64,000 nucleotides of DNA from an archaeon (GTDB taxonomy: Archaea > Nanobdellota > Nanobdellia > Pacearchaeales > GW2011-AR1): the NCBI GenBank assembly GCA_043822125.1, contig JBDRCB010000009.1, positions 79,736-143,735 of the forward strand, in the 5' to 3' direction. Below the pieces are notes generated by a model that was not told the DNA's origin, searched no databases, and saw only the letters and a list, made by a program, of their open reading frames with translations. Position 1 is the first letter of the stretch. The number at the start of each line of letters is the position of its first letter. Of the stretch, positions 9,016-55,016 are shown in pieces. The translations under genes and the position numbers were made by a program.

Positions 9016-9154
9016 ATAAATCAGATAAGATATATTCATTTAAAATTATTGCTATAATGCCTATCTCCGAGCAATAGATAACTTATTTGGGTTGTGGAGT
9101 GTCTACAGAGGAATCATCGATAACATTTTAATATGGATTATTATTATATTCCTT

Positions 9155-15565: not shown

Positions 15566-15605
15566 TTCTAAACATTTTTATATTTTGAATTTATCTAAAA
15601 ATCAT

Positions 15606-15689
15606 GCGGAGATGCCGGAGTGGTCAAACGGGACGGACTCAAGATCCGTTAGCTTAGTGCTTACCTAGGTTCGAATCCTAGTCTCCGCA
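15606..15689 (+). tRNA. tRNA-Leu (CAA), class II long variable arm, no intron
   Basis: GCGGAGA...ACGGA-CTCAAGA-TCCGT, variable arm TAGCTTAGTGCTTAC, T arm CTAGG-TTCGAAT-CCTAG, acceptor TCTCCGC + A. Confidence 0.95.
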
Positions 15690-15736
15690 TTTTATTTAAT
15701 TAACATCTGTACTAACTTAATAGTAAATACAGGATA

Positions 15737-15771: not shown

Positions 15772-16416
15772 ATGGAAAAAGGCTTATCAACTATTTTAGG
15801 AACATTAGTATTAGGAACAGCAATAGCAGTAAGTGGATGCTCAGGTTCACCATTACAGATGAGAAACCCTGAAGGAGAAGTTTATAAAAAATATAATCCT
15901 GCTCCAACAACTGTAGAGAATACAAATGCTAATAGAAAAATAATAGACCATAATTTTGATTTAGCAAAAAAAGAAAGAGAAAAACTTAATGATGAAGTAT
16001 ATAGTCTTAGTAAATACGTGCGTGGCGACATAAAAGAAAGACTTGTTGCTTTAGAAGTAAATCAAGAAAAAGATGTTCAAAATAGGGGAAATTATTTTCA
16101 TTCTAATGTAACTAAGAAAGATAATCTTATATTATGGGAATTAGGTATAAGAGACTTATATTCTAGAGGAATAGTAATAAAAGACAAACCAACTAATCAT
16201 AAAAAAATTGGTTATTTAGTTCCACGGGAATCATTATTTCCTGAAGAATATTATCCAACTGCAGGAGAATATGAAATAGATACTGGAAGAAATTTCTTCG
16301 TGCCAAAAGAAGATATGGATAAAATTTTAGGAAAAATTAAAAAAATAGTCGAAAACCAAAAAGCAATGAAAATAAAAGAATTCTTAAGAGATTATATTAA
16401 GTCAAAGAAAAAATAA
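15772..16416 (+). CDS. Exported 214-aa protein. The N-terminus fits both a class-III (prepilin-like) signal and a lipobox.
   Basis: MEKG|LSTILGTLVLGTAIAVSG|CSG. K-G-L-S-T-I fits the FlaFind-type pattern, and VSGC fits a lipobox. The stop codon abuts the stop of the convergent giant gene with a 0-nt gap. Confidence 0.7.
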   Translation: MEKGLSTILGTLVLGTAIAVSGCSGSPLQMRNPEGEVYKKYNPAPTTVENTNANRKIIDHNFDLAKKEREKLNDEVYSLSKYVRGDIKERLVALEVNQEKDVQNRGNYFHSNVTKKDNLILWELGIRDLYSRGIVIKDKPTNHKKIGYLVPRESLFPEEYYPTAGEYEIDTGRNFFVPKEDMDKILGKIKKIVENQKAMKIKEFLRDYIKSKKK

Positions 16417-19400
16417 TTAAATAACTTCAAAATCAGCTATCCAATAATCAACAGCATCATTGCTACTTACTGTACAAAGAGGAATTGTATTGCTGACGTC
16501 ATTTATTATTTTAACTGTATAAGTTCCAAGAGCAAGTTTTTCTTGATTCCCTAGTGAGAGATCAGATAAGAAAAGAGATTCATCTAATAAATTAATTGAA
16601 TAAGTAGAAGAAGAATCAAATTGAATTTGTTTATTACGAACAAAATATTCTACCTCCCCTTTCTTATAAGAAATAGAAAGCATTGCTTTAACATCCTTAC
16701 AATCTTCATCTCCTCTCAAAATTAATGTAGTTGGATTAGTAAATTTTTCAGGAGATTTTAAACCTGCAGGAAATATATCTCTATCTCCTTCATTAAATTC
16801 TACAATAGAAATTCCTGCCCCTATTTTTTCACATTTTTTCTCTGCAGTTTTACAATTAACAGAACTATCAGCTGTAGTTGTTCTTGTCGCATAAACCCCA
16901 TTACCCGTCGCTGTCCTCTTAACAATAGTTGTTTCTTTTTTATCTATTTTTTCTAATAATTTTCCATAAGATTCTTTCGCAAGTCCTGCATAAGCATCTG
17001 CTTTTATCAGCAATAATCTTGCTTTTTGACTGCTCTTTGCAACTTTGCTGTAATAATTATTAACATTAACAATTTGCACTTGAAGTTCTTCTCCTTTTAA
17101 CTCTTTTATTAATTTATCAAAATTGGTATCATCTAAAAATTCTTTTTCACTTCTTAAAAATTCTAAATAAGAATCACTTACTGCTCCAAGGGTTGCATTT
17201 TCTATTTCTAAACTTTTTATTACATTTTTCACACTTTCTGTATCAAGCCAGCATCCGATATTAGGGTCATCGCAGTAACCGATTTTTCTCCATCTCGCAC
17301 TTTCTGTTCCTGCTTTTGCATCTGTCCCAACACCAGGATCACTAGTTGCGCAGATTCTTATAATTCCTCTGTTATAAATTTCAGGATTTACAGTCTCCTC
17401 AACACCAGCCTGCAAATTAGGACTCAGAAGACTATAAGCACTAGGAGTTCCTGCTATGCAATCCTCTAATCTTGTAACTGTCTCTGTTGCCTGCTCCTGC
17501 ATATACAAATCATTCATATAATCAACTGCAAATGAAGTAGACACCTGCTTGAATCCACACTCCTCTTGGTTATTAACTTTAATACACAATTCCTGATATC
17601 CTGCAGGTGCTGTAAAATCTTTTGTTTCAGAAGCATAACCTCCCATTGGTATATAACCAGATGCAACAAACCTTGGCGTCGATGTGTCCTGATAATATGC
17701 ACTACTTGTCCCGCCTTTCAAATAAACACTGTAATAAGCCCTAGACTCTTTTCCTGCATAAATATGATAAAACACTTTATATTGAGAAATAGGTGGAACT
17801 GTTGCTGTTGTGAATAGTATTTCATCAAACTTTCCATGGAACTGCGGAGGAGAGCGCGGGTCTGTGAGAGAATCAAGTAAATTTCCTCCATCAGGATAAG
17901 TGCCTGAAATTGAAACCTCGCAAACAGAATCAGTAATCCCTTCTATAAGCCTTTGTTTAAATGATGTATAAGAATTTTCAGAATAATATTGTATAAAATA
18001 ATCCATTGACTTTTCAGCATTTTGCCATGCAGAAGCAACAGTCATATATTCTCCTCCTCCTCGCGAACGCTGTCCTGCAATATACTCTAAAACTTTAGGA
18101 ATAATTATTTTTGTAAGTGGAATTGCCTGTCTCCAGAAAAACTCGCAGAGGTGTATGCTGTAAATCTCATCGCAGATTCCAACCATATCCCCTGTTGTCA
18201 AGCTCTCATTAAGGCAGTCTCTATAAGAAGTCAGAACAGAAATCCACCCGTCCATTCCTGCTTTAATTCCTGTCAAGCAAACTGGAATAGCAACACCTCC
18301 TTCAAGAGGATTTCCAAAATTAGGTAAGCACAATGCAACACTTCCGATTATTCCTGACTGCACAACATCCTGAACAGGAAAAGTGCCCCCAAAATCACAC
18401 CTGCTCGACGGGCATATAACAGGGTCGCACACATTAAATAAAACATTGCACTCTGTAGCAGACATTAAATCATAGCACTGAATATCAGGAATATCCACAG
18501 CAGGTTTTCCGACGAGAACACTAATTGAACCACCACATTGAGTTGAAACTGAAATTTTATTAATACTTTGTTTATACTGTCTTTGTGCATCTTGTACTGC
18601 TTTTATTGCACATGAAACTAATTTAGATGCTTCACTTTCACTTAAACCATGAAAAAAATTCAATGGCTGTCCAGTAGCAAGATTAATCATTATACACTCG
18701 TCATCTCCTTTTCTATTGTTTTCAATTCCATCAGTACCAATATTGCAAACCCAAAAACTATTTAATCTTCCAGAGGTTTGATAAGAAGTTGTTGCATCTG
18801 TCGTCGGAAGCGACTGGCTCACAGAAACATACCACCCGTTCTTTAAATCAAACGGAACAATCGCAGGCGTGCCCTTATACGGCTCTGTTTCATAATACCT
18901 CGCATAAACTTTTGTCTCTCCTTCTGAATATTTATATTCATTTTGATAAAGTGTTCTATCACTAAAAACAACATTAGCATTTTGAATTTCTTTGTAATTT
19001 GGATCGCAGTATGGTTGATTTATTTGGTCTGTTGAAGCGCAATCAATTAACTTGTTTAAATCTTCATCATAAATATCTTTTACCCTATACTGACTTACAC
19101 TAATTTTCTCTAACTCAAGATAATAAGTTTTTCCTTTATGAAGTAATAATTGAATATAGGCTCCTTTCTGAATAGATTTCATATTATTAGGTACGACTGC
19201 TCCTGTATAATAAATAGTTCCTACTCTTTTTTCAGTTGGTAAATTTATTGTAGCCACATCACTATCAAGTCCATATTCTTCCTTTGCTGTTGTTTGAAAA
19301 GTAGTTTTTTCAACATAATCTCCTGCTGCCTTATTAATATCAAAAGCAAGAGCATAAAGTTCTCTCTTTGCTATTTTATTCTCAGGGTCTTTTTCCAAAA

Positions 19401-22400
19401 TCATTAAATTATATTCAATTGCCCTCACCTGCTCATTTGTATAATAATGATTTTTCTTCCAAACCTCTGGATTTAATTTATTTATTAATTCACTAACTTC
19501 AACAAATTCTCCTTTTTTAAGAGGATTTTCAATTTTTTTACTCTTCCCATAGTTTTTCAAAGCATTAATAGTTGCTTCTGCATTTACAGGAACAATTTCT
19601 TCAGTATCATAAACTTTTGTTCCGAAAATTCCTTCTTCTGTTTCAAATTGTTTTTGCCTGTTCTGCAAAAGTTCATTTTGCTGTTTAATAGTCTCCTCCC
19701 TCATTTTAATTTCTTCTTCAATTTCTTTTTCCTTCATTGAAAAGCACTTATCCAAAGAATCATATTTTTCTTTTGCAACTTCACCAGAGCAAAACTCATA
19801 CCAACCGCCTTTGCCTCTCATAGCTTCCTGTCTTGCTATTGCTTTTCCATCCCAGTTTGTAATAATGTTTTTCAAAGTAATTAAAGTTCCAGTCGCCAGG
19901 CAAGCTGTTTTCAGAGTTTTAACAGCATTCCCGAGATTCTCTGATTTCTCTGTCCATTCTTTAATTGACTCCTCTAAATCCGCGACTTTCTTTTTTATCT
20001 GCTCTGGAGAAAGCTGTATTGCCCTCTTCTCAATTCCCACTCTAAAAGAAAAATTAGTAGTTGTCCCTGCATTTTCTATTGTTGGTATAACACTCACTCT
20101 TGCGATTTTTTTAAGATTCACCTTTGCCAAGACAATGCTAAATTGACTTCCAGAAGTTTGAGCAACATCTTTCTGCAGAGTAAATGTCTTTGAAATATCA
20201 GCACCATCTTTTTCTGTTGATTTCAGATTAACATTAACACTCGCAACATCATTGCCCAAAGAATCTCTCTCAACAGAAATCAGCTGAAGATAATTCATCG
20301 TCGGTGAAACTCCAGTTGTTGTTGCTGGGACAGTTGCAGATAAAGATACTCCGAGTTTCTCGTATTTTTCGAGGACTTTATCTACATAATTAGTATGAAA
20401 GGTATCGCAACCTGCTCCTAATCCAACATAACCTAAAAGAGCAGCTTCCCATCCAGAATATTTGAGAGTTTTACAACTATTTTCAACACCATTTTTAAAA
20501 GTTTCATATTTTGCTTTCAAATGTGCAGCACCAGCCATAATATTTTTTTTAGGATTAAATCTATCATCACTATCTTTAGTGCATATATCAGGACCTGTAC
20601 CAGAATAATATTTATTACCTATTTTATTAAGACACTTACTGCAATTCGACCATTCTCCTCCTTTACCCCCAAGAAGATTTCCTTTGTTATCAAAACATCC
20701 ATCAATAGCAATGAAATTTCCATAAGAAGGAATATTTAGAGAACCCTCTTTAACATTGGGCATAAGTTGCATTAAACCAACAGCTCCTGCCCAACTAATA
20801 ATATCTTTATTACAACTACTCTCAGTCATCATCAAAGCAACTAATAGCAATGGATCAATTTCATATTGTTCTCCTGCATCTACAACTTCTTGAGCATAAT
20901 TCTTACAAGAAGAAGAAATAGAACTTCCTGCTTTATCTATTGCATCTTTAACTTCTTGTACAGTTCTACTGACTTTCCATTCTCCCAACTTATCAGGCAA
21001 CTCCCCACTTATCGGAGCACCTTCATCCAAATAAACAATCTGATTCTTCCTCAAAGTATACGCTGTTGTTGTAGTGCCTCTATGAACAACAATCTCTGCA
21101 CCATATTCTTCCAGCGACGGTTCATAAATCCCGTCAAAAGAAACTGTCCTCAGCTGTCCATTAATCAAAACATCTTTGCTTGAAATTTCCAAACTTGAAG
21201 ATTTATAATCTTGTAAAGCGCATAATGTTTTATCTAATTTACTATCTGGATATGCTGTTTGAAATTCTGTGCACAAAGCAATTTTTTCTCTCTTCTGTCC
21301 AGTAATATGTGCTAACACAATTTTCTGATAAAAAGCCTGCTCTCCATAACTAATACCAGCATCATTGTAATTTTCTCCTGCAAAACTCTCAGTAATCTGC
21401 TGATAAGTTTTCATTGCACTTTCATAATTATTATTAAAATCAGTTTTTTCAACAGAAGAATCAGCAACAGAAAAATCACCTGCTCCTGAAAAACCAGCAA
21501 GTTTTATATCTTTTCCAAAAACAGATTTACTCTTGCTCATTTCAATCATCTCAAGATTTTCTCCTACTTTCAAAATACTTTCCCACTTATTAGCACGATT
21601 CAGCATAGCCCTAACTCTCGCGCTAATTACAGAAATTTCACTCTCAGTTAATTTGTCAGCACTTGTTCTTGATTTATATAAATAAATAATTAAATCCTCT
21701 GTTCTCTCCTCGTCAATTCTAAAGCTTCCTTTTTCAAATCTCGCAGTCCCAACATAACCCAGATAAACAGAAGAGCTGTCATCAGCAGTATATAACTTCT
21801 GCCCAATTTCATAAGAATTTTTAGTAGCATCAAATTCTAAATCCACACTCGGGCGGATAACAAGCTGAAAAGGAGCACTTGTGTCATCAGCGTCGCACCT
21901 TACATCTATTTTCTGCGAAAGCCCCTGCTTTTCTATGCTCCTGACATAGCATCTATTTTCTAAAAAAGGTTCATTGACTTTCACTTCAACAACATCTGCA
22001 TTTACTCTTAATCTTGCGCGAGTGTCTGGATTTTCAAGCCCATCTAAACTAATCTGCAGACTTGTAATGCAATCCAAGCCAGGAATTCTTATTTTTTCAG
22101 ATGTCTGTCCTGTTGTCAGACCAACAGTTGAAATTTTATTGTTCTTATCTGAATAAACAGCAATTGTTGAAAAAAAATCATCAACTGATTCTGCTCTCAG
22201 AAAACCCCTGCTGTTCCAGAATCCATATTGGGAATATCTTGAATTCCATTCACTATCACTCATTTCAGGAAGATAAAATTGAGTTCTGCCGATTCCAAAT
22301 GCATTTCTAATGTCATATTTTATCGTCGCTGTCAAATTTCCAGAAACTTCTTTTGGCAAACTTGATTCATTTCGATTCTGCCTTAAGGTAATCACAACAA

Positions 22401-22902
22401 AACCAACATTATTCAAAACAGGAGAATTAAGATTAAGTGAAGTTGCAAGTGCTGCCCGTGCAGGATAATAGCCAACTCCTGAAATCTCTTTTGGAATTTC
22501 AGAACCTCCAAAAGAAATACTGTCTATAACATCTACATCAACAAGAGGATTCATCTTCGTTGCTCCAATCTGGCAGAGAACTCGCACATCCTGTTCTGCA
22601 AGCAAATCACTTCTTACAACAGCAGGCTCGCATCCAAAAGGAGTAATCTGCAGCACAAAATCCTGTCCTGCAGTACACATAGAAGAATCAACCTGCCACA
22701 ACCCTCCTGTAAAAGAACCTAAAGAACTTCCATAAAACTGGGAATTATAAGAAGACAGCAACGATGAACTGCTATATGAATGAGTGTAAGGATTCCAATT
22801 AGAAGAACTGCTGAAAAAAGAACTAGTATATGCTGAAGCAAAAGAAATTAACAAAATTCCGATTAAAAAAAACATTCCGAACTTAAAACTTTTCAATCTC
22901 AT
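16417..22902 (-). CDS. Giant (2,161 aa) secreted protein with an internal lytic transglycosylase (SLT) domain, a coiled-coil segment and a Cys-rich C-terminal half
   Basis: Uninterrupted ORF with the Sec-type signal MRLKSFKFGMFFLIGILLISFASA|Y. SLT motifs IDPLLLVALMMTESS, AVGLMQLMP, NIMAGAAHLKAKY and GWEAALLGY. The ATG overlaps the upstream stop (ATGA). Confidence 0.9.
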   Translation of the reverse strand: MRLKSFKFGMFFLIGILLISFASAYTSSFFSSSSNWNPYTHSYSSSSLLSSYNSQFYGSSLGSFTGGLWQVDSSMCTAGQDFVLQITPFGCEPAVVRSDLLAEQDVRVLCQIGATKMNPLVDVDVIDSISFGGSEIPKEISGVGYYPARAALATSLNLNSPVLNNVGFVVITLRQNRNESSLPKEVSGNLTATIKYDIRNAFGIGRTQFYLPEMSDSEWNSRYSQYGFWNSRGFLRAESVDDFFSTIAVYSDKNNKISTVGLTTGQTSEKIRIPGLDCITSLQISLDGLENPDTRARLRVNADVVEVKVNEPFLENRCYVRSIEKQGLSQKIDVRCDADDTSAPFQLVIRPSVDLEFDATKNSYEIGQKLYTADDSSSVYLGYVGTARFEKGSFRIDEERTEDLIIYLYKSRTSADKLTESEISVISARVRAMLNRANKWESILKVGENLEMIEMSKSKSVFGKDIKLAGFSGAGDFSVADSSVEKTDFNNNYESAMKTYQQITESFAGENYNDAGISYGEQAFYQKIVLAHITGQKREKIALCTEFQTAYPDSKLDKTLCALQDYKSSSLEISSKDVLINGQLRTVSFDGIYEPSLEEYGAEIVVHRGTTTTAYTLRKNQIVYLDEGAPISGELPDKLGEWKVSRTVQEVKDAIDKAGSSISSSCKNYAQEVVDAGEQYEIDPLLLVALMMTESSCNKDIISWAGAVGLMQLMPNVKEGSLNIPSYGNFIAIDGCFDNKGNLLGGKGGEWSNCSKCLNKIGNKYYSGTGPDICTKDSDDRFNPKKNIMAGAAHLKAKYETFKNGVENSCKTLKYSGWEAALLGYVGLGAGCDTFHTNYVDKVLEKYEKLGVSLSATVPATTTGVSPTMNYLQLISVERDSLGNDVASVNVNLKSTEKDGADISKTFTLQKDVAQTSGSQFSIVLAKVNLKKIARVSVIPTIENAGTTTNFSFRVGIEKRAIQLSPEQIKKKVADLEESIKEWTEKSENLGNAVKTLKTACLATGTLITLKNIITNWDGKAIARQEAMRGKGGWYEFCSGEVAKEKYDSLDKCFSMKEKEIEEEIKMREETIKQQNELLQNRQKQFETEEGIFGTKVYDTEEIVPVNAEATINALKNYGKSKKIENPLKKGEFVEVSELINKLNPEVWKKNHYYTNEQVRAIEYNLMILEKDPENKIAKRELYALAFDINKAAGDYVEKTTFQTTAKEEYGLDSDVATINLPTEKRVGTIYYTGAVVPNNMKSIQKGAYIQLLLHKGKTYYLELEKISVSQYRVKDIYDEDLNKLIDCASTDQINQPYCDPNYKEIQNANVVFSDRTLYQNEYKYSEGETKVYARYYETEPYKGTPAIVPFDLKNGWYVSVSQSLPTTDATTSYQTSGRLNSFWVCNIGTDGIENNRKGDDECIMINLATGQPLNFFHGLSESEASKLVSCAIKAVQDAQRQYKQSINKISVSTQCGGSISVLVGKPAVDIPDIQCYDLMSATECNVLFNVCDPVICPSSRCDFGGTFPVQDVVQSGIIGSVALCLPNFGNPLEGGVAIPVCLTGIKAGMDGWISVLTSYRDCLNESLTTGDMVGICDEIYSIHLCEFFWRQAIPLTKIIIPKVLEYIAGQRSRGGGEYMTVASAWQNAEKSMDYFIQYYSENSYTSFKQRLIEGITDSVCEVSISGTYPDGGNLLDSLTDPRSPPQFHGKFDEILFTTATVPPISQYKVFYHIYAGKESRAYYSVYLKGGTSSAYYQDTSTPRFVASGYIPMGGYASETKDFTAPAGYQELCIKVNNQEECGFKQVSTSFAVDYMNDLYMQEQATETVTRLEDCIAGTPSAYSLLSPNLQAGVEETVNPEIYNRGIIRICATSDPGVGTDAKAGTESARWRKIGYCDDPNIGCWLDTESVKNVIKSLEIENATLGAVSDSYLEFLRSEKEFLDDTNFDKLIKELKGEELQVQIVNVNNYYSKVAKSSQKARLLLIKADAYAGLAKESYGKLLEKIDKKETTIVKRTATGNGVYATRTTTADSSVNCKTAEKKCEKIGAGISIVEFNEGDRDIFPAGLKSPEKFTNPTTLILRGDEDCKDVKAMLSISYKKGEVEYFVRNKQIQFDSSSTYSINLLDESLFLSDLSLGNQEKLALGTYTVKIINDVSNTIPLCTVSSNDAVDYWIADFEVI

Positions 22903-24803
22903 CTGAAATATATGCTTAACCTTTTTTCTTCAAAAAGAAGATAATTATTTTGAAGATGCTCAAGTGTTACTGGAATAGGCAGTTCTTCTGCATTAATCTC
23001 AATTTTATTTGAATTCTCGAGCTGGGATTCCAAAATATAATAATTTAATTTTCCTCCTCCTGCAAGAGCATTTGAAATAATCTGCGACGGGAATGTGATA
23101 TCAAAACACTGCTTTTCTGTAAGCCCTAACAATGCGCCAAAACCTTGCTGAGGGACATCAACACACTGTTGCTGAACAGATTCCTGCAATCTTATCGAAG
23201 AATTTCTGTAAGCATAAACCTGAACTTCATAATCTCCTTGACTCAAACTGATTTTTCTCTGCTCTGGATAAACAATTGTTTTAGAACCCTTTTCTGATGT
23301 AAAAGTAATAATAGCGTCGCTGTTGTATTCTCTGCCCCCGAGTTTAAGCTCAAAATCAAGTTCATATAATTTACCCATAATAATTTCAGCACTACCTGGA
23401 CTCACAGTTGAAAACATAAACTCAGAATCTTCATAACCCTCTGCCCTTGCTATAACAAATCCATTCGCACATTGAGGGAAATACTCGTCGATGACACCAT
23501 AACTTGTCCCGCCAATATAACACATAGTTGAAAAACATTCATAAGAAATATTTGTTTCAACAGGAGTTAATCTTGAATCATATGTTCTGATTGTAACAGG
23601 AGTGTTCTTGTTTTCGCACAAATCAAGAAGCTCTGCCCCAACAGCTTCAGAAGCCATTGGCTCTCTCGGAAGATTTCCTCTTACAACAACTGCAAATGGG
23701 AACTGGAAAATTTCATCTCCGCTGAAAATCTGAGTTAAAACAGGATATTTAATGTCATAAACAAAATGATAAGGAACATAGCAGAAACCCAAAATTCCCA
23801 AGCCAGGCTGATTTCCAACAGGACTCGCTATAAGCATTGCTCCAGAGGATGGCTCGACGCTGAAAGAATAAGGCCATGTTCTTGAATTCAAAAACCGCAC
23901 ATCCTCTTCAACAGAAACATCAACAATAAAATATTTATCATCCGGGCTTTTCAAATCATAATTCCCGTTTTTTAATTTCAATGCAAGAGTGTTTGCTTCA
24001 ACAGCTTCTTGTAGTTCAGAAAAAACCTCTTCAGCATTCCAGATTTTAGGAGCACAGCTCATTTCAACTCCGTCAACAGGGGCATAAAGCCGAAGTGTAT
24101 CAACAGCATATTCCTCTAAAAACAAACTCTTCTGCTCATAAGAATAAATTTTTACTGCAGATTCATACATCTTCCCAAGATTAGAATTCAAAACAACTCC
24201 GTGGTTTTTTATAATTGCACTCTCTTCTCCTCTATGAATTTCAAGATTCATATTTATTTTAACATCAACAACATTTTTTCCAATAGTAACATCCACTTTC
24301 GGCTCTCCCTGAATAATCTCAAACCCCTGCTCAAAATAAATTTTGAAATTGCAATTTCTTGCTCTTGATTCAATAAATTCAGCAAGTTGTTTTTCCATAT
24401 TTTTCAAAGTAGGAACCTGTTCTTTCTGGATATTATTTCCAGAAACATAATACCAATAAGGAATTGGATTTCCAAAAAAATCAAGATGATTTGAAAAAGG
24501 CATATAAGATGTCCCTGGCTCAAAATCAGAAGGAATAATATACCCTCCCTGAATTCCGAGAATATCAATTCCTATTGATGCATCTGTTTCAAGGCAGAAT
24601 AAAAAATCATTGTAAATTGGCTCCATTTCTGCAGGAAGCCCCTTCTGAAAAAAAATGTCGCGAAAAACAAAAAAAAGTAAAACACCCCCTACAATAACTA
24701 TCGCAACAATTATAAAAATTGCAACCTGTGCTTTTTTTTGATTTGCAAAACACCCAAAATCACACCGAGAATTTTTTAATCCTTCCACACCTTTTTTTTG
24801 CAT
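22899..24803 (-). CDS. 634-aa protein with a class-III (prepilin-like) signal / N-terminal TM anchor. It is the first gene of the giant-protein operon.
   Basis: N-terminus ...NQKKA|QVAIFIIVAIVIVGGVLLFFVF fits [KR][GA][Q..][hydrophobic x3] followed by a TM helix. TATA core 29 nt upstream of the ATG. 4-nt overlap with the downstream giant gene. Confidence 0.8.
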   Translation of the reverse strand: MQKKGVEGLKNSRCDFGCFANQKKAQVAIFIIVAIVIVGGVLLFFVFRDIFFQKGLPAEMEPIYNDFLFCLETDASIGIDILGIQGGYIIPSDFEPGTSYMPFSNHLDFFGNPIPYWYYVSGNNIQKEQVPTLKNMEKQLAEFIESRARNCNFKIYFEQGFEIIQGEPKVDVTIGKNVVDVKINMNLEIHRGEESAIIKNHGVVLNSNLGKMYESAVKIYSYEQKSLFLEEYAVDTLRLYAPVDGVEMSCAPKIWNAEEVFSELQEAVEANTLALKLKNGNYDLKSPDDKYFIVDVSVEEDVRFLNSRTWPYSFSVEPSSGAMLIASPVGNQPGLGILGFCYVPYHFVYDIKYPVLTQIFSGDEIFQFPFAVVVRGNLPREPMASEAVGAELLDLCENKNTPVTIRTYDSRLTPVETNISYECFSTMCYIGGTSYGVIDEYFPQCANGFVIARAEGYEDSEFMFSTVSPGSAEIIMGKLYELDFELKLGGREYNSDAIITFTSEKGSKTIVYPEQRKISLSQGDYEVQVYAYRNSSIRLQESVQQQCVDVPQQGFGALLGLTEKQCFDITFPSQIISNALAGGGKLNYYILESQLENSNKIEINAEELPIPVTLEHLQNNYLLFEEKRLSIYFR

Positions 24804-24824: not shown

Positions 24825-24836
24825 TATATAAAGTTT
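24825..24836 (-). promoter_or_regulatory. TATA promoter of the 634-aa / 2,161-aa operon
   Basis: The minus strand reads aaactttatata. The core starts 29 nt upstream of ATG 24803. Confidence 0.6.
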
Positions 24837-24865: not shown

Positions 24866-24937
24866 GGTCCTGTAGTCCAGTGGCTAAGACATGTCCTTGA
24901 CGTGGACAAGACCCCAGTTCAATTCTGGGCAGGACCA
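24866..24937 (+). tRNA. tRNA-Val (GAC), no intron
   Basis: GGTCCTG...TGTCC-TTGACGT-GGACA...CCCAG-TTCAATT-CTGGG-CAGGACC-A; 72 nt. Confidence 0.95.
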
Positions 24938-42100: not shown

Positions 42101-42138
42101 TCTCACACTCTTTTAATACCTGATATAATAAAAAAGAG

Positions 42139-47765: not shown

Positions 47766-48440
47766 ATGGTACTCTCAGCAGAACAGCTCCAGCAGTTAAA
47801 AAAACAAATTATTCAGCAGATTGAATCAACTTTTCCAGAAGACAAAAAAAATTCAGCAATTCAGCAGATTGAATCAATGGGTGATGAGCAGTTTGTAGAA
47901 TTTTTAAAGCAAAATAATTTAATTTCCCAAGATTTCTCTTCAACAGCTCCCCAAGGGCGAGTGTCCGGGGAGTCTGCGAACGGAAATTCCACAAGCCAGT
48001 GTGTTTTTTGCTCAATTCTCGAAGAAAAAATCCCTTCCTATAAAGTAGATGAAAACAAAGAAGCAGTTGCTGTCTTGGAAATAAACCCCATCTCAAAAGC
48101 ACACTCCCTCATAATTCCAAAAAAGCACTTATCCTCTTCAGCAGAGATTCCACAGCAGGTTTTTTCTCTTGCTAAAAAAATTTCAAAAAAAATAAAAACA
48201 AAATTCAAGCCAGTAGATATTCAGATTTCTTCTTCAAATTTATTTGGACACGAAATAATCAATATCCTTCCTATTTACAAAAATGAAAATCTCGGTTCTG
48301 AGAGAAAACCAGCAGAAAAAGAGGAATTAGAAAAACTTCAAAAAATTCTGGAAAAAAAACCAAGAAAGAAAATTATTAAAAAAATGAAAGCCAAAGAAAT
48401 CAAAGAAGAAAAAATCTGGCTTCCTAAAAGAATACCTTAA
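47766..48440 (+). CDS. HIT-fold protein lacking the histidine triad
   Basis: CVFCSILEEKIPSYKVDENKEAVAVLEINPISKAHSLIIPKKH is HIT-like, but the triad position reads GHEIINILP. It has an extra N-terminal helical region and a basic tail. Confidence 0.65.
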   Translation: MVLSAEQLQQLKKQIIQQIESTFPEDKKNSAIQQIESMGDEQFVEFLKQNNLISQDFSSTAPQGRVSGESANGNSTSQCVFCSILEEKIPSYKVDENKEAVAVLEINPISKAHSLIIPKKHLSSSAEIPQQVFSLAKKISKKIKTKFKPVDIQISSSNLFGHEIINILPIYKNENLGSERKPAEKEELEKLQKILEKKPRKKIIKKMKAKEIKEEKIWLPKRIP

Positions 48441-49269
48441 AAATTATAAAATTCTGAAGATAAAAATAAATCAGAATCAAAAAACTAATCAGAAAAACAG
48501 GAACAAAAGGTATTCCCTGTCTTATCCTCACAAATCTGTATTTTTTTCTAATCTTTTTAATCTCCTCGTCGCTGAGCCCCTCCCACTTTGATTTTAAAAT
48601 TTTTCTCCCGACATTCAGATTTTCATAAAGCCAATCTCCTTCTCTTAAATCACATGTCTTGATTCTCTTAACCATACATGCCTCATCAACTGCTTTTGCA
48701 TAAATATAAAAATAAGGCATTAGAAAAAAAAGCACTCCAAAATAAAATAAAAAACTTTCTAAAAATCCTGCTGTCATTAAAATAAGTGCAAAAATCATTA
48801 AAGAATATGCTAAATTTTTATTTTTTGAAAAAATCCTCAAAAACTCTCCACTGAAATTACTAAAATTTCTCTTTGCCAAAACAATGCTCCAAATCAATCC
48901 GTAAACTCCTCCTGCAAACAGAAAAATAAAAAGAAAAACTGCGAAAATTTTCAAGTTATAAAAAAAATCTTTTGAAAAAGGAAGAACAGCTCCAAGTGCA
49001 ATCATCAGCTTCGCATCTCCTCCTGCAAAAATCTTCCCATAGTAAAAAGCATTTCCCAGGATAAAAAAAATTCCAAGTCCGATTAAACCCTGATAAAAAA
49101 AACCAAATCCTGCATCAGAAAATAAAGAATAAAAAAATCTAAATCCAAGGGCAAAGAATATCAGTGAAAAACTAAGCCAATTCGCGACTTCGTGTGTTTT
49201 CAAATCCTGGACACTCGCGAAAACAATCCAAATCAAGCCGAGAGCAATGAGAAAAAAAACCTCAAACAT
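48424..49269 (-). CDS. Type IV prepilin/preflagellin peptidase (A24 family; PibD/FlaK-like)
   Basis: Polytopic membrane protein. First Asp in SVQDLKTHEV, second in FAGGDAKLMIALG, and C-terminal GIPFVP. Confidence 0.8.
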   Translation of the reverse strand: MFEVFFLIALGLIWIVFASVQDLKTHEVANWLSFSLIFFALGFRFFYSLFSDAGFGFFYQGLIGLGIFFILGNAFYYGKIFAGGDAKLMIALGAVLPFSKDFFYNLKIFAVFLFIFLFAGGVYGLIWSIVLAKRNFSNFSGEFLRIFSKNKNLAYSLMIFALILMTAGFLESFLFYFGVLFFLMPYFYIYAKAVDEACMVKRIKTCDLREGDWLYENLNVGRKILKSKWEGLSDEEIKKIRKKYRFVRIRQGIPFVPVFLISFLILIYFYLQNFIIFKVFF

Positions 49270-49479: not shown

Positions 49480-49643
49480 ATGTCAAAATCCCCACTATCA
49501 AAACTCGGACTTGCTCTTGCATCAGGAGTTATTGTTGCAGCTACTACATTTTATGCTGTTTTGCCTTCCCAAAAAAACCCTGTTAAACAAATTGCAGAAG
49601 AATCAGTCGCTACTCCGCTAGTTGAAAGAACTTCTGAAAGAAA
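49480..49643 (+). repeat. 164-nt direct repeat, copy 1 (5' end of paralog A)
   Basis: 163/164 identical to 51065..51228. The single difference is A49612 versus G51197 (Thr/Ala). Confidence 0.95.
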
Positions 49644-51064: not shown

Positions 51065-51228
51065 ATGTCAAAATCCCCACTATCAAAACTCGGACTTGCT
51101 CTTGCATCAGGAGTTATTGTTGCAGCTACTACATTTTATGCTGTTTTGCCTTCCCAAAAAAACCCTGTTAAACAAATTGCAGAAGAATCAGTCGCTGCTC
51201 CGCTAGTTGAAAGAACTTCTGAAAGAAA
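51065..51228 (+). repeat. 164-nt direct repeat, copy 2 (5' end of paralog B)
   Basis: See copy 1. The offset is exactly 1585 nt. Confidence 0.95.
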
Positions 51229-52771: not shown

Positions 52772-54925
52772 TTAACTGCCCAGCCCGCCTAAAACAACTG
52801 TTGCTAGGATAAATAAAGCAAGAGTTGAAAAAAGTGCAGTTAAAAAATAAAGAAAGAGCCCCCTCAGATAATTTTTCCCTCTTTTGTTTGTCTTCTCAAG
52901 TTTGTCTTCTCCAGAATCAATTGTAACAAGTGCTCCTGTGAGAATGAAGATTATTTGAATAAGGTAAATTCCAATAATAATCTGCAGATAATAAGGAGGT
53001 ATCATTTTTGTCAAATCAAAAATTTTCAAAATCGTGCTGAGCCCTCCAAAGCCGAGAATTTCCTGCCCTTCTATTTCCAAAAAATTAATTTTGCTTAAAA
53101 TAGTTGTTATCATTGCTGATAGCCCGACGACAATTCCCGCAAGAAGAGGTGCAAGGAAAGTCATATTGCTCTTCATATCAGAAACAATCTCTGCAAGCAT
53201 ATCCTTCAATCGCACAGTTGTCTTCTGAATATTCTTAACATATTCTGATATGCTCATCAAACTCACCGCCGCAATTTTCAGCCCTTTTTTCGCAGATTCA
53301 ATTAATATTCTCATACTTGTTGCAATTAACTCAGAAGGATAAAAAATTATAGCCCCTCGCTGTGAATCAAAAATTGCTTTTTCAGCACCCATCCCCATCT
53401 GCCTGATGTTATAGTTAACTCTTTTAAAAAAATCCTCTGTCATCAGGCCCTTGGAAGATTCAGCAACTCTTCCGAATGCAAGTTCAACAGGAAGTCCGTT
53501 TCCAATGCGGTTCCCGAGCTGAAATAATGAATTATTAAATTCCCCTTCTAAATTTTTTGTCCTCTCTCTTTCAACTATAATCTCCTTTGTTCTTTTTTTA
53601 TGTGCAATTGAAAAAAATGCTGCAATTCCGAGGGGAAAAAACATTCCGAGAATCAAGGCGCCTACTCCAAACGGCCCTTTAATTCCCTCCCCGCTGTCTT
53701 TAAACCCAAAAATTTTTTCATTTCCAAAAATTCCCAAACCAAGTTCTGCAAAAGTATAATCATTTTTCAGTCCAATCAAATCAGGAATAGGAGTATACTG
53801 AAATATCAACGGTAAAAATCCAATTATAAAAAAAGGTAAGCAGATAAGAAAAGCAGTAAAATACGGCTTCTTGGTTTTATATTTAGGATAAAGAGGGTTT
53901 CTCTCAAGCAGAGTTGTCTCTCCGTACCCTCCTGGCCTCAAATGCAAAACTTTGTCTGTAAGATAAAAAATAAAAAAAGGGATTATAAAATTAAACAAAA
54001 TAAAAACATGATGCCATTTTACAAGGTCTCCTATCATAGCAGAAGCAAGAGGTAGGAGGGCGAGCCCGAGTGTCGGAAGAACAACCCCTAGCATGTAAAT
54101 ATTTGTCAGCGGACTCCTGACTTCATGTGTGAATTTTAGCATTTTGTCATAAACACCATCGAGAACCACCTGAAGGGACTTTTCAAGAGTCGCTATTCTA
54201 TGCGAGTTGTCAGGCTCAAACAAACTGCTTTCAATTAAATGAAAAGATTCTATAAATTCAGTGGAATAATCTCTCCATGTTTCTAAATAATTATCCAGAC
54301 TCTCTTTGATAGTAGAGAACTTTCCAATTTCCACGTCGTAAAAAACTTTTTTAAAATCAAGTGCAAGAGGATACTGCAGGTTCTGTGCTGCAAATGCAAT
54401 CGCCTTCTCTAGATTAGGGGTATGCCTCATATAAACAACCACATACAAAATCGCGGGAACCATTTGCGAAGATGCTTTAAGTCTCCATTTATTCGCGAGC
54501 CGTTCTGGATATCCTATAACAAAATAAAACAAGAACATTGAAAGAATCAGCACTAAAAAGAAAAATAAAAAAGGAAAATTCGCAAGACTGCCTTTTATTA
54601 AAATAACAGAAACAGAAATAATAAGCCCAATCATCAAAACACTGAGAAAAGCAGTAACACCAAGGGTAAGTGCCTGCCATGGCTCAATGTCAAGATGAGC
54701 AACATCAATATGCTTCTGGATTTTTTTTCTGTCTTTCTCAGAAACATTTATTCTTATGAAACTTCCGAGAGTATGGCAGAATTTTTCATACCCTGAAAAT
54801 TCAGGAGCCATCTCGCTTTTGAAAACTTCATAGCTTCTGCTGAAACTCCCGCCCGAAACATCACTTTTAATCTGCGACTCAATTTTTGCCCCGTGTTTTT
54901 TCAGAATATCTTTTGCATCATCCAT
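52772..54925 (-). CDS. FlaJ/PilC/TadC-like polytopic platform protein (two T2SSF-like cytoplasmic domains), putative
   Basis: 717 aa with at least 9 TM helices. Two soluble segments resemble T2SSF domains (AIAFAAQNLQYPLALDF...; AFGRVAESSKGL...GMGAEKAI...). It lies directly downstream of the secretion ATPase. Confidence 0.6.
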   Translation of the reverse strand: MDDAKDILKKHGAKIESQIKSDVSGGSFSRSYEVFKSEMAPEFSGYEKFCHTLGSFIRINVSEKDRKKIQKHIDVAHLDIEPWQALTLGVTAFLSVLMIGLIISVSVILIKGSLANFPFLFFFLVLILSMFLFYFVIGYPERLANKWRLKASSQMVPAILYVVVYMRHTPNLEKAIAFAAQNLQYPLALDFKKVFYDVEIGKFSTIKESLDNYLETWRDYSTEFIESFHLIESSLFEPDNSHRIATLEKSLQVVLDGVYDKMLKFTHEVRSPLTNIYMLGVVLPTLGLALLPLASAMIGDLVKWHHVFILFNFIIPFFIFYLTDKVLHLRPGGYGETTLLERNPLYPKYKTKKPYFTAFLICLPFFIIGFLPLIFQYTPIPDLIGLKNDYTFAELGLGIFGNEKIFGFKDSGEGIKGPFGVGALILGMFFPLGIAAFFSIAHKKRTKEIIVERERTKNLEGEFNNSLFQLGNRIGNGLPVELAFGRVAESSKGLMTEDFFKRVNYNIRQMGMGAEKAIFDSQRGAIIFYPSELIATSMRILIESAKKGLKIAAVSLMSISEYVKNIQKTTVRLKDMLAEIVSDMKSNMTFLAPLLAGIVVGLSAMITTILSKINFLEIEGQEILGFGGLSTILKIFDLTKMIPPYYLQIIIGIYLIQIIFILTGALVTIDSGEDKLEKTNKRGKNYLRGLFLYFLTALFSTLALFILATVVLGGLGS

Positions 54926-55016
54926 CTTTTAAATTACAATTAAAAAAGATTAATAAATGTTTTTAGTTAATAAAAAAGAATTTAAACTATTTCAAAAAAA
55001 TTTCTGGCTAAACTCT

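What the first reader, a model, noticed from the sequence alone, without database searches (positions are those of the whole stretch)
16417..24803. Coupled operon: a prepilin-signal 634-aa protein plus a 2,161-aa secreted giant carrying a peptidoglycan-lytic domain
Seen in sequence: one promoter (TATA core 29 nt upstream of ATG 24803) precedes two ORFs joined by an ATGA overlap, together 8.4 kb, about 13% of the window. The first protein starts ...KKA|QVAIFIIVAIVIVGG, which fits the archaeal class-III (prepilin) signal pattern. The second has a Sec-type signal, an SLT lytic-transglycosylase module, a coiled coil and a Cys-rich C-terminal half containing an amphipathic/hydrophobic stretch (GIIGSVALCLPNFGNPLEGGVAIPVCLTGIKAG). 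Established knowledge: class-III signals are cut by A24 peptidases and mark subunits that assemble with type-IV-pilus machinery, and both a peptidase and an ATPase/platform pair lie in this window (48.4-57.3 kb). Inference: this may be a surface or pilus-associated apparatus that presents a cell-wall-cutting giant protein. In a reduced, probably host-dependent archaeon, that would be a candidate host-attachment or penetration system. I do not recognise the combination as a described system.
Basis: partly seen in the sequence, partly recalled or inferred. Interest (0 to 1): 0.8.

Follow-up and report, generated by a model that had tools for sequence, protein, structure and literature searches.

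The report
Archaeal anchor plus wall-cutting giant
A two-gene cassette shared by hundreds of tiny Pacearchaeota/Woesearchaeota-type archaea encodes a membrane-held partner protein and a giant exported scaffold with swappable heads, here an intact bacterial-cell-wall-cutting enzyme; it is a candidate tool for attaching to or attacking bacteria, and while the giant was already noted in the literature, I found no description of the partner or the modular design.

Summary
A 634-aa ORF (22899..24803, -) and a 2,161-aa ORF (16417..22902, -) overlap by ATGA and sit on an archaeal chromosome. The giant carries an SLT lytic-transglycosylase module with its catalytic Glu (E694) intact.

The pair is not an oddity of this genome. 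In 81 of 81 related loci with downstream sequence, the giant directly follows the partner, inside a conserved S3Ae-L44e | pair | TFB-S8e neighbourhood. At least 343 species-level genomes encode the partner.

The partner's N-terminus carries a near-invariant [KR][GAS]|Q-x-T-x-F class-III-like motif, which is kept even in relatives at 25-35% identity.

The SLT is an accessory. The giant is a roughly 1,750-aa constant scaffold with two variable slots. About 22% of relatives carry SLT, and only 4 of 119 carry it at this position. About 29% carry a Cys-His module that weakly resembles NlpC/P60. The C-terminal tail is hypervariable.

No pilus genes lie within 10 kb of the cassette in any of the 87 related loci fetched. 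Neither the scaffold nor the partner has a recognisable structural relative.

Large SLT proteins of these archaea are already published (Castelle 2021; Vigneron 2022). The papers I searched mention neither the partner, nor its signal, nor the modular design. The pilus link remains unproven.

The parts
24825..24832 (-). TATA-like octamer TTTATATA, 22-29 nt upstream of the partner's ATG. The spacing suggests a leaderless or near-leaderless transcript.
   Evidence: The octamer is not enriched in the window (10 found, 6.4 expected), so this is suggestive only.
22899..24803 (-). Partner gene, 634 aa. It is an extracytoplasmic protein with 10 invariant Cys, held by an N-terminal hydrophobic helix. 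It has no Pfam, NCBIfam or PHROG family.
   Evidence: AF2 model pLDDT 72.6: TM helix 22-51, helix 58-84, an alpha/beta domain at 106-240, and beta-sandwich domains at about 400-634. Foldseek gave only generic Ig/CnaB-like hits.
24663..24803 (-). Class-III-type (prepilin-like) signal: a 25-aa basic leader, the K-A|Q motif at residues 24-26, then a hydrophobic helix at residues 26-47.
   Evidence: Family motif [KN][RK][GAS]|Q[VLI]T[IV]F[IV][IV]. Q+1 is present in 119/119, T+3 in 118/119 and F+5 in 119/119; the median leader is 6.5 aa. The motif is kept in members at 25-35% identity. Profile hits are insignificant.
22899..22902 (-). ATGA overlap between the partner's stop and the giant's start, consistent with translational coupling.
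   Evidence: The same 4-nt or 1-nt overlaps, or gaps of 1-32 nt, occur in relatives.
16417..22902 (-). Giant gene, 2,161 aa, a Sec-exported modular scaffold.
22831..22902 (-). Sec-type signal peptide of the giant (residues 1-24, ...SFASA|Y).
   Evidence: Hydropathy. The family consensus keeps it.
21013..22830 (-). Conserved N region of the scaffold (residues about 25-630).
   Evidence: Present in all 119 homologues. Median identity is 40% in 75 loci. No Pfam or PDB relative.
20293..20985 (-). Slot 1 insert (residues about 640-870): an SLT lytic-transglycosylase module. The catalytic Glu694 codon is at 20821-20823. A Cys-rich insertion of about 60 aa lies inside the domain.
   Evidence: PF01464 E 2.4e-15. 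Alignment to MltC/MltE places E694 on their catalytic Glu, with the GLMQ and NPxxNI motifs present. Only 4/119 homologues have SLT at this position.
16963..20295 (-). Conserved scaffold core (residues 870-1980): beta-rich start, long helices at about 966-1210, beta-rich middle, then the Cys-rich region.
   Evidence: Present in all homologues. AF2 pLDDT 64. No Foldseek match in PDB or BFVD.
17227..18600 (-). Most conserved segment of the giant (residues 1435-1892), Cys-rich, including ...CDPVICPSSRCDFGG...PVCLTG...GGGEY...
   Evidence: 33% identity to giants of distant cassettes L083 and L084. It is the strongest HMM stretch in L083, L084 and L086, and the only residual similarity to L085 and L087. 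Many invariant Cys.
16417..16962 (-). Slot 2: a unique C-terminal tail (residues 1981-2161).
   Evidence: No tblastn hit in 82 related loci. No Pfam hit. Family tails range from 148 to 1,142 aa.
48424..49269 (-). A24 (prepilin/preflagellin-type) peptidase, a candidate processing enzyme. It is not part of the cassette.
   Evidence: PF01478 E 1.8e-10. Asp22 and GGD 82-84 are present.
52772..57296 (-). T2SSE-family ATPase (55017-57296) and the adjacent 717-aa polytopic membrane protein (52772-54925). This is a candidate type-IV-filament machinery whose link to the cassette is unproven.
   Evidence: PF00437 E 8.5e-15 for the ATPase. The 717-aa protein has 8 or more hydrophobic segments but no Pfam hit. 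No such genes lie near the cassette in 87 loci.

Best explanation
This is a conserved, vertically inherited two-protein cell-surface module of Pacearchaeota/Woesearchaeota-type Nanoarchaeota.

Gene 1 makes a disulfide-rich extracellular protein of about 615-635 aa. It is held by an N-terminal hydrophobic helix that carries a class-III-type (prepilin-like) processing motif. Gene 2, translationally coupled to gene 1, makes a Sec-exported constant scaffold of about 1,750 aa. The scaffold has two variable slots, one between the N region and the core and one at the C-terminal tail. Lineage-specific 'heads' are inserted in these slots.

In this genome slot 1 holds a catalytically intact family-1 lytic transglycosylase, and the tail is a unique domain of about 180 aa.

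Proposed working:
1. Both proteins are exported.
2. The partner is cut by the A24 peptidase and stays in the membrane, or on a short type-IV-filament-like stalk.
3. The partner holds the scaffold at the cell surface.
4. The scaffold presents its heads to a neighbouring bacterium.
5. The transglycosylase cleaves glycan strands locally, for attachment, access or predation.

Shown: the gene pairing, its conservation, the conserved signal motif, the modular architecture, the intact SLT catalytic motifs, and export signals on both proteins. Inferred: physical contact between the two proteins, processing by the A24 peptidase, surface retention, and bacteria as the target.
For: - Pairing: the giant directly follows the partner on the same strand in 81/81 loci with downstream sequence. 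The same holds in divergent cassettes at 25-45% identity. ATGA or near-zero spacing is typical.
- Spread: 343 species-level genomes carry the partner, and the family has 5,680 clusters at 50% identity.
- Chromosomal core: the S3Ae-L44e | pair | TFB-S8e neighbourhood is conserved.
- Extracytoplasmic location: a Sec signal on the giant, an N-in anchor with a basic leader on the partner, 10 invariant Cys in the partner and many in the giant.
- Signal motif: Q+1 in 119/119, T+3 in 118/119, F+5 in 119/119, median leader 6.5 aa. The motif persists in distant members. A third gene with the same N-terminus follows the giant in L059. Small class-III-like genes follow it in L085 and L087.
- An A24 peptidase is encoded in the window.
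- Modularity: blocks 1-630 and 870-1980 are present in all 119 homologues. The median spacer between them is 10 aa (maximum 550). Tails range from 148 to 1,142 aa, and the window's tail is unique.
- Heads: SLT in 27/120. A Cys-His module with weak NlpC/P60 and CHAP hits in 35/120. Also M10 and trypsin-like peptidase, LRR, ankyrin and DUF1615 domains. In L085, a distant cassette, the large gene after the giant carries an Amidase_2 domain with a faint Peptidase_M74 hit; in L087 the corresponding gene carries DUF2272, whose function I did not establish.
- SLT integrity: E694 aligns to the catalytic Glu of MltC and MltE, and the GLMQ and NPxxNI motifs are present.
- Evolutionary rate: partner 55%, giant 40-43%, against TFB 92% and L44e 76% in the same loci. 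This fits an exposed, fast-evolving interaction surface.
- Published precedent for the bacterial-wall reading: PMC8204110, PMC9723730.
Against: - There is no direct evidence that the two proteins touch. No multimer model could be run.
- Class-III assignment rests on a motif. Profile models give E 0.3-3. The window's own protein has an atypically long leader and Ala at +3.
- About 40-50% of family members have no recognisable wall-degrading head. The conserved function of the scaffold therefore cannot be peptidoglycan cleavage itself.
- The NlpC/P60-like call is below threshold.
- The structure models are mediocre (pLDDT 72.6 and 64.4) and gave no informative matches.
- No expression or localisation data were examined. 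A metaproteomic Pacearchaeota study reports its genomes lack the transglycosylase (PMC11537232).
Confidence: 0.5

Rival explanations
1. Pilus-tip or pseudopilus apparatus. After cleavage by the A24 peptidase, the partner is loaded as a bulky 'modular pilin' at the tip or base of a type-IV filament built by the ATPase/platform at 52.8-57.3 kb. It carries the giant as tip cargo, much as minor pilins carry PilY1.
For: - The class-III-like motif is conserved, with short leaders, across the whole family.
- The secondary-structure order TM helix, second helix, then a 4-stranded sheet (residues 22-206) is compatible with a pilin-like module followed by extra domains.
- Additional class-III-like genes occur in some cassettes.
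- A peptidase and an ATPase are present in the window.
- Large class-III-signal proteins that functionalise type-IV filaments are documented in archaea (10.64898/2026.04.22.720090).
Against: - No ATPase, platform or A24 gene lies within 10 kb of the cassette in 87 loci. In the window they are 24-32 kb away.
- No small pilin gene was found in the window.
- No type IV pilin appeared among the 50 Foldseek matches listed.
- Profile hits to class III and archaellin N-termini are insignificant.
- No PilY1-like domain was found.
Confidence: 0.2
2. Cell-envelope (S-layer-like) structure. The partner is the membrane anchor and the giant is the canopy or stalk of the wall of these archaea. Enzymes are displayed on it, as the tetrabrachion S-layer of Staphylothermus carries a protease.
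For: - The pair is near-universal and apparently single-copy in a housekeeping neighbourhood.
- An anchor plus large exported protein arrangement resembles the SlaB/SlaA logic (comparison from my own knowledge, not tested here).
- Long helical segments are present.
- The rate of evolution is moderately fast, as for envelope proteins.
Against: - No sequence or fold similarity to any solved S-layer protein.
- The hypervariable tails and swappable enzymatic heads fit an interaction organ better than a lattice.
- Other large secreted proteins exist in the window (9092-12574).
- Abundance was not tested.
Confidence: 0.13
3. A freely secreted bacteriolytic enzyme, an archaeal 'weapon' against bacteria. 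The partner acts only as an export or maturation helper, not as a surface anchor.
For: - The SLT is intact.
- Archaeal peptidoglycan hydrolases that kill bacteria are documented, and are prominent in Nanoarchaeota (PMC12352652).
- The giant has no membrane anchor of its own after signal cleavage.
Against: - A conserved scaffold of about 1,750 aa and an obligatory co-translated partner are hard to justify for a diffusible enzyme.
- Many members lack any hydrolase head.
Confidence: 0.1
4. Remnant of a mobile element or virus (a tape-measure or tail-like protein with an SLT domain), integrated between two tRNA genes.
For: - tRNA-Leu and tRNA-Val flank the region.
- PHROG and phage hits exist for the SLT segment.
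- GC is slightly higher than in the flanks.
Against: - Phage similarity is confined to about 50-160 residues within the SLT segment. There is none for the scaffold or partner.
- The same chromosomal neighbourhood recurs in about 80 species.
- No integrase or capsid genes lie between the tRNAs.
- No BFVD fold match.
Confidence: 0.02

Closest known systems
[quoted passage not shown] 2021, PMC8204110; also Vigneron et al. 2022, PMC9723730)
   Same: It shares the clade, the size class (up to about 3,000 aa), the SLT domain, predicted extracellular location, and the proposed role against bacterial walls. The window protein itself is annotated in NCBI as 'transglycosylase SLT domain-containing protein'.
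   Different: Those papers define the family by its SLT domain. Here SLT is present in only about 22% of scaffold homologues and sits in two alternative positions. The passages I read do not mention the obligatory upstream partner, its class-III-like signal, or the constant-scaffold and variable-slot design.
Archaeal class-III-signal non-pilin proteins (Sulfolobus bindosome sugar-binding proteins; census in 10.64898/2026.04.22.720090)
   Same: It is a large functional protein with a basic leader, a [KR][GA]-type cleavage motif and a hydrophobic N-terminal helix. Like those proteins, it is encoded away from the type-IV-filament locus.
   Different: It has no solute-binding domain and no ABC transporter neighbour. 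It is always paired with a giant exported protein. Processing is untested.
Bacterial type IV pilus tip complexes (minor pilins plus PilY1) and 'modular pilins' such as Streptococcus sanguinis PilB/PilC (from my own knowledge)
   Same: The logic matches: a class-III-signal subunit carrying bulky extra domains, together with a large Sec-exported non-pilin adhesin.
   Different: No PilY1 or pilin domain was detected. There is no linkage to pilus genes. The domain of life differs. The analogy is functional only.
Family 1 lytic transglycosylases (MltC, MltE/EmtA, Slt70; PF01464/GH23) and their fusions in phage tail or tape-measure proteins and the PRD1 transglycosylase
   Same: The SLT module aligns to MltC and MltE over the catalytic E-S motif, and the GLMQ and NPxxNI motifs are present. 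Phage hits cover the same segment.
   Different: The module is embedded in the middle of an archaeal giant, and a Cys-rich insertion of about 60 aa splits the domain. The organism has no murein of its own (established knowledge for non-methanogen archaea).
Polymorphic toxin-type proteins (CdiA, Rhs; from my own knowledge)
   Same: It has a conserved delivery scaffold with a hypervariable C-terminal end and swappable enzymatic modules.
   Different: There are no TPS, FHA or YD repeats. No conserved downstream immunity gene exists: the adjacent 214-aa ORF is convergent and lineage-specific.

Membership tests
Archaeal class III (prepilin-like) signal peptide substrates | Basic leader, [KRDE][GA][ALIFQMVED][ILMVTAS]x3 cleavage motif (FlaFind-type rule, from my own knowledge), then about 20 hydrophobic residues near the N-terminus | tested here: met
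   The window has K24-A25|Q26-V-A-I followed by a helix at 26-47. The family consensus is KRG|QVTIF, with a median leader of 6.5 aa. The window's leader is atypically long at 25 aa.
Archaeal class III (prepilin-like) signal peptide substrates | Match to curated N-terminal profiles (PF04021 Class_IIIsignal, PF01917 Arch_flagellin N-terminus) | tested here: inconclusive
   E-values were 0.28-3.2, all below the cut-offs. Short hydrophobic peptides rarely score.
Archaeal class III (prepilin-like) signal peptide substrates | A cognate A24 peptidase encoded in the genome | tested here: met
   48424-49269: PF01478 E 1.8e-10, with Asp22 and GGD 82-84.
Archaeal class III (prepilin-like) signal peptide substrates | Actual cleavage by the peptidase | not testable with these tools
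   Needs an in vitro or in vivo processing assay.
Type IV filament (pilus) subunit or tip component | Type IV pilin fold, or incorporation into a filament | tested here: inconclusive
   The secondary-structure order is compatible. No type IV pilin appeared among the 50 Foldseek matches listed, which are dominated by C-terminal Ig-like domains.
Type IV filament (pilus) subunit or tip component | Genomic association with the ATPase/platform locus | tested here: not met
   None of 87 related loci has an ATPase, platform or A24 homologue within 10 kb, while GINS is found in 44 and YbjQ in 22. The distance in the window is 24-32 kb.
Family 1 lytic transglycosylase (SLT, PF01464, GH23) | Domain match above the curated threshold | tested here: met
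   56.5 bits against a cut-off of 21.3, E 2.4e-15. NCBIfam and PDB hits are to MltC, EmtA and BB0259.
Family 1 lytic transglycosylase (SLT, PF01464, GH23) | Catalytic Glu in the E-S motif, plus the GLMQ and downstream N-P-x-x-N-I motifs | tested here: met
   MMTE694SS, GLMQLMPN and NPKKNIMAGAAHL align to MltC and MltE. The AYNxG-type motif is degenerate (ALLGYVGLG).
Family 1 lytic transglycosylase (SLT, PF01464, GH23) | Peptidoglycan-cleaving activity | not testable with these tools
   Needs an enzyme assay.
Large SLT-domain proteins of Pacearchaeota/Woesearchaeota (fam00969, PMC8204110) | A protein of more than 2,000 aa, predicted extracellular, with an SLT domain, restricted to these lineages | tested here: met
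   2,161 aa, Sec signal, SLT domain. All named homologues are Pacearchaeota, Woesearchaeota or Nanoarchaeota MAGs. The fam00969 HMM itself was not on hand.
Two-component S-layer (SlaA/SlaB-type or tetrabrachion-type) | Sequence or fold similarity to known S-layer proteins, or lattice formation | tested here: not met
   No PDB sequence or fold match for either protein. Lattice formation is not testable here.
Polymorphic toxin systems (CdiA/Rhs-type) | TPS, FHA or YD-repeat scaffold and a cognate immunity gene directly downstream | tested here: not met
   No such Pfam domains. The downstream 214-aa ORF is convergent and not conserved. Only the variable C-terminus resembles these systems.
Phage tail or tape-measure proteins with an SLT domain | Similarity outside the SLT domain, or a viral gene context | tested here: not met
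   PHROG and phage tblastn hits are confined to the SLT region: all tblastn hits end by residue 715, most PHROG hits by 744, and one 'endolysin' PHROG extends to 814. The partner has no hit. The context is ribosomal-protein and TFB genes.

The most novel reading that the evidence does not exclude
The cassette may be the core of a host-contact organelle common to Pacearchaeota/Woesearchaeota-type archaea. In this reading, a class-III-processed subunit assembled by type-IV-filament machinery holds a giant scaffold. The scaffold's exchangeable heads (lytic transglycosylase, NlpC/P60-like peptidase, amidase, proteases, LRR/ankyrin binders) are tuned to particular bacterial hosts. Its deeply conserved Cys-rich core (residues 1435-1892, no known fold) would perform a still unknown, possibly membrane-active step. 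If true, this would give the first molecular handle on archaeon-on-bacterium episymbiosis, and head type could be used to predict hosts.
Probability: 0.2. Interest if true: 0.85.

Novelty: new variant of a known kind. Interest (0 to 1): 0.6.

Why it matters
Pacearchaeota and Woesearchaeota are abundant and uncultivated, and they are presumed to depend on hosts. Neither the hosts nor the contact machinery are known. The published hint is 'some genomes have a big SLT protein'.

This analysis turns that hint into a defined, near-universal two-gene module. It has a constant scaffold, an obligatory partner carrying a prepilin-type signal, and heads that change between lineages. About half of the heads look like peptidoglycan hydrolases.

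That gives concrete experiments. The heads can be expressed and tested on walls of co-occurring bacteria. The partner can be tested for cleavage by the A24 peptidase. The complex can be looked for by cryo-ET or metaproteomics. It also gives a comparative marker, head type, that might predict host range. Finally, it defines two large protein families with no structural relatives.

Tried and rejected
- Pfam, NCBIfam and PHROG scans of both proteins found nothing beyond SLT.
- PDB sequence searches with single sequences and with family profiles found nothing beyond SLT.
- AF2 models were mediocre: partner pLDDT 72.6, scaffold core pLDDT 64.4. Foldseek against PDB and BFVD returned only generic Ig/CnaB-type beta-sandwich hits for the partner and nothing for the core.
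- The first alignments of the core with about 85-90 full-length giants failed. I reduced the set to 47 sequences.
- Class III and archaellin profile tests on N-terminal peptides were insignificant.
- I expected the mature N-terminal helix to be more conserved than the rest of the partner. It is not: column identity is 0.69 against 0.74. Only Q+1, T+3 and F+5 stand out.
- I first thought the partner was 'as conserved as housekeeping genes'. I rejected this: it is 55% identical where TFB is 92% and L44e 76% in the same loci.
- The mobile-element or prophage idea (flanking tRNAs, slightly higher GC) was rejected on synteny in about 80 species and the absence of viral similarity.
- A search for small pilin genes, or other class-III-motif ORFs, in the window found none.
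- A search for type-IV-filament genes near the cassette in relatives found none.
- Profile tests of the Cys-His tail module against PDB and Pfam gave only sub-threshold NlpC/P60 and CHAP hits.
- The recent Nanobdellota complete-genome preprint does not mention transglycosylases, pilins or giant proteins.

Full report
**1. The observation**

The window holds a 634-aa ORF (22899..24803, - strand) and a 2,161-aa ORF (16417..22902, - strand). The first ends and the second begins in an ATGA overlap at 22899-22902. A TTTATATA octamer lies 22-29 nt upstream of the first ATG. The octamer is not enriched in this AT-rich window (10 found, 6.4 expected by shuffling). The promoter is therefore plausible, and by its spacing would give a leaderless transcript, but it is not demonstrated.

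The surroundings are an archaeal chromosome. S8e, TFB and tRNA-Leu lie on one side. tRNA-Val, L44e, S3Ae, YbjQ and GINS lie on the other. An A24 peptidase (48424-49269) and a T2SSE-family ATPase (55017-57296) are confirmed. The 717-aa protein between them is polytopic but matches no platform-protein profile. The window is identical to an NCBI MAG labelled 'archaeon' with a 161,824-bp contig.

**2. The partner (634 aa)**

It matches no Pfam, NCBIfam or PHROG family and no PDB sequence relative. It has a very large family, however. There are 1,982 clusters at 90% identity among the candidates scored. An exhaustive profile search found 5,680 clusters at 50% identity at E<=1e-3.

In 120 aligned members the N-terminus reads [KN][RK][GAS]|Q[VLI]T[IV]F[IV][IV][IV]A. 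Gln+1 is present in 119/119, Thr+3 in 118/119 and Phe+5 in 119/119. The median leader is 6.5 residues. Members at only 25-35% identity still start MRAQITLF..., MKKGQVTIF..., MKKRGQVTVY....

This fits the archaeal class-III (prepilin-type) pattern, and it is far more constrained than a generic membrane anchor would need to be. Curated class-III and archaellin N-terminal profiles give only E 0.3-3, so the assignment rests on the motif. The window's own protein is atypical in two ways: it has a 25-aa leader with no nearer in-frame start codon, and it is the one sequence with Ala at +3. It is the only ORF in the window with such a signal.

Ten Cys are invariant, consistent with an extracytoplasmic, disulfide-bonded ectodomain. 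The AF2 model (pLDDT 72.6) shows a TM helix at 22-51, a second helix at 58-84, an alpha/beta domain at 106-240, and beta-sandwich domains from about 400. Foldseek returns only generic tandem Ig/CnaB-like matches at TM 0.1-0.27, including Gram-positive pilus adhesins and the B. anthracis TIE protein. The most conserved stretches (236-257 and 317-348) have the lowest model confidence. I read this as possible partner-binding loops. That reading is an inference.

**3. The giant (2,161 aa)**

It has a Sec-type signal (...SFASA|Y) and no other TM-grade segment.

Comparison with 119 homologues divides it into four blocks:
- an N region, residues 1-630, present in all;
- an insert at about 640-870, present at this position in only 4;
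- a core, residues 870-1980, present in all;
- a tail, residues 1981-2161, that matches nothing in 82 related loci.

In most relatives the N region and the core are separated by about 10 residues. Tails range from 148 to 1,142 aa.

The insert is the SLT domain (PF01464, 56.5 bits against a cut-off of 21.3). It aligns to MltC and MltE with Glu694 on their catalytic Glu and with the GLMQ and NPxxNI motifs. A Cys-rich insertion of about 60 aa splits the domain. It therefore looks catalytically competent.

Across the family, SLT is present in 27 of 120 members, usually in the tail. Other members carry M10 or trypsin-like peptidase, LRR, ankyrin, TPM or DUF1615 domains. I also found a recurrent module of about 180 aa in 35 of 120 tails (C..A..Y.Y..AGV ... 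GD.LS.V ... GHNVIF.W). Its only Pfam hints are sub-threshold NlpC/P60 (3 of 18 members, best E 0.005) and CHAP (E 0.03). It overlaps the Pfam SLT set in just one protein. If the hint is right, about half of the family carries a wall-hydrolase head.

The scaffold itself has no relative in Pfam, PDB or BFVD by sequence or fold. The core model has pLDDT 64. Phage similarity is limited to the SLT segment.

**4. The pair across genomes**

A scan of one genome per species found 343 genomes encoding the partner, and 80 loci were fetched. Counting those 80 and two fetched earlier, in 81 of 81 loci with any downstream sequence the giant's N region starts right after the partner on the same strand. The arrangement S3Ae-L44e (divergent) | partner-giant | TFB-S8e (convergent) recurs throughout. 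All named sources are Pacearchaeota, Woesearchaeota or Nanoarchaeota MAGs. One contig is labelled 'Bacillota', which looks like a binning error.

In the same loci the median identities are:
- TFB 92%
- L44e 76%
- S8e 70%
- S3Ae 65%
- partner 55%
- giant 40-43%

The pair is therefore vertically inherited but evolves faster than its housekeeping neighbours.

Divergent cassettes keep the pairing:
- L083: 638 aa then 2,734 aa (SLT plus DUF1615).
- L084: 715 aa then 2,165 aa (SLT).
- L086: 659 aa then 1,742 aa.
- L085: 684 aa, then 1,764 aa, then a 191-aa class-III-like protein, then 1,358 aa (Amidase_2, with a faint Peptidase_M74 hit).
- L087: 661 aa, then 1,781 aa, then a 178-aa class-III-like protein, then 626 aa (DUF2272).

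The part of the giant that survives best across these distances is the Cys-rich region, window residues 1435-1892. In L059 a third gene with the same RKRGQVTIFIII N-terminus follows the giant.

No type-IV-filament ATPase, platform or A24 homologue lies within 10 kb of the cassette in any of 87 related loci. The controls GINS and YbjQ were found in 44 and 22 loci.

**5. What it most likely is**

I read this as a two-protein cell-surface module. An anchored partner, possibly processed at its class-III motif, holds a Sec-exported constant scaffold. The scaffold displays lineage-specific heads.

In this genome one head is an intact lytic transglycosylase. These archaea are not known to make murein (established knowledge), so its substrate is most plausibly the wall of a neighbouring bacterium.

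Shown: the pairing, conservation, motif, modularity, catalytic motifs and export signals. Inferred: the physical complex, processing, surface retention and the bacterial target. My confidence is about 0.5.

It has the motif and the extra class-III-like genes of some cassettes in its favour. The lack of any genomic linkage and of a recognisable pilin fold count against it. An S-layer-like envelope role (about 0.13) and a freely secreted lysin (about 0.1) are the other live options. A mobile-element origin is effectively excluded.

**6. Relation to what is known**

Large extracellular SLT-domain proteins of Pacearchaeota and Woesearchaeota are published. They are interpreted as tools to bind or degrade bacterial walls:
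- Castelle et al. 2021 describe fam00969, up to 3,000 aa, in a Pace/Woese-specific module of 51 families (PMC8204110).
- Vigneron et al. 2022 (PMC9723730).
- PMC10936187.
- PMC11537232.

Archaeal peptidoglycan hydrolases that kill bacteria are documented experimentally for other archaea (PMC12352652). Class-III signals on large non-pilin proteins encoded away from filament loci are also established (bindosome; 10.64898/2026.04.22.720090).

I did not find four things in the papers I searched: the obligatory partner gene, its conserved prepilin-type signal, the constant-scaffold and two-slot architecture in which SLT is only one option, and the conserved chromosomal position. I therefore class the finding as a new variant of a known kind, not as categorically new.

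**7. Verdict**

Interest is 0.6. The basic idea of a big SLT protein used against bacteria is not new, and the pilus link is unproven. The cassette is nevertheless a well-defined, widespread and experimentally tractable candidate for the host-contact machinery of a major uncultivated archaeal group. Both of its protein families lack any structural relative.

Noticed in passing
window 49480-51051 and 51065-52762 (+): Two tandem paralogues (523 and 565 aa) share an identical first 44 residues (MSKSPLSKLGLALASGVIVAATTFYAVLPSQKNPVKQIAEESVA). The second has PD40/TolB-like beta-propeller repeats. They sit between the A24 peptidase and the polytopic membrane protein and ATPase.
   Followed up: no
window 15772-16416 (+): A 214-aa ORF has a lipobox-like N-terminus (…AIAVSGC|SGS). 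Its stop codon abuts the giant's stop codon tail-to-tail with no spacer. It has no Pfam or NCBIfam hit and no homologue in 82 related loci, so it is lineage-specific.
   Followed up: partly
Relatives of the giant, e.g. P0101 residues 1966-2157, P0093 2255-2438 (not in the window): A recurrent Cys...His module of about 180 aa occurs in the variable tail of 35/120 giants. It gives weak NlpC/P60 (E 0.005) and CHAP (E 0.03) hits and is almost mutually exclusive with SLT. It may be an unrecognised peptidoglycan peptidase family.
   Followed up: partly
Tails of giant homologues (output), e.g. P0070, P0111, P0076: Seen by eye only: repeated motifs of about 40 aa of the type EF(I/V)..L...G(V/I)(L/I)(T/S).EEY.E(I/L).G.G.F, and small Cys knots of the type C..CG....CD...C..IG...G..C. 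One weak SHOCT_2 hit (E 0.0045).
   Followed up: no
L085 17351-21986; L087 17325-19738; L059 18705-19523: Divergent cassettes carry extra genes after the giant. These include small (178-191 aa) or 272-aa proteins with class-III-like N-termini. They also include a further large protein: 1,358 aa in L085 with an Amidase_2 domain and a faint Peptidase_M74 hit, and 626 aa in L087 with DUF2272.
   Followed up: partly
window 52772-54925 (-): The 717-aa protein next to the T2SSE ATPase has at least 8 hydrophobic segments but no Pfam or NCBIfam hit, including none to T2SSF/FlaJ-type platform proteins. If it is the platform, it is very divergent.
   Followed up: partly
window 9092-12574 (+) and 40625-42106 (-): Two other large proteins with N-terminal hydrophobic segments that look like export signals: 1,160 aa with a near-threshold bacterial Ig-like Big_13 hit (26.3 bits against a cut-off of 27), and 493 aa. 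The giant is therefore not the only candidate surface protein in the window.
   Followed up: no
L067 (DATKUW010000047.1): This contig is labelled 'Bacillota bacterium' in its MAG record. It carries the full archaeal S3Ae-L44e | partner-giant | TFB-S8e arrangement, so it is probably a mis-binned Nanoarchaeota contig.
   Followed up: no
window 15605-15690 and 24866-24937 (+): tRNA-Leu(CAA) and tRNA-Val(GAC) bracket the 214-aa ORF and the cassette. The bracketed region has slightly higher GC (0.35-0.37 against about 0.31-0.33). No integrase or repeats were seen, and synteny argues against an island.
   Followed up: partly
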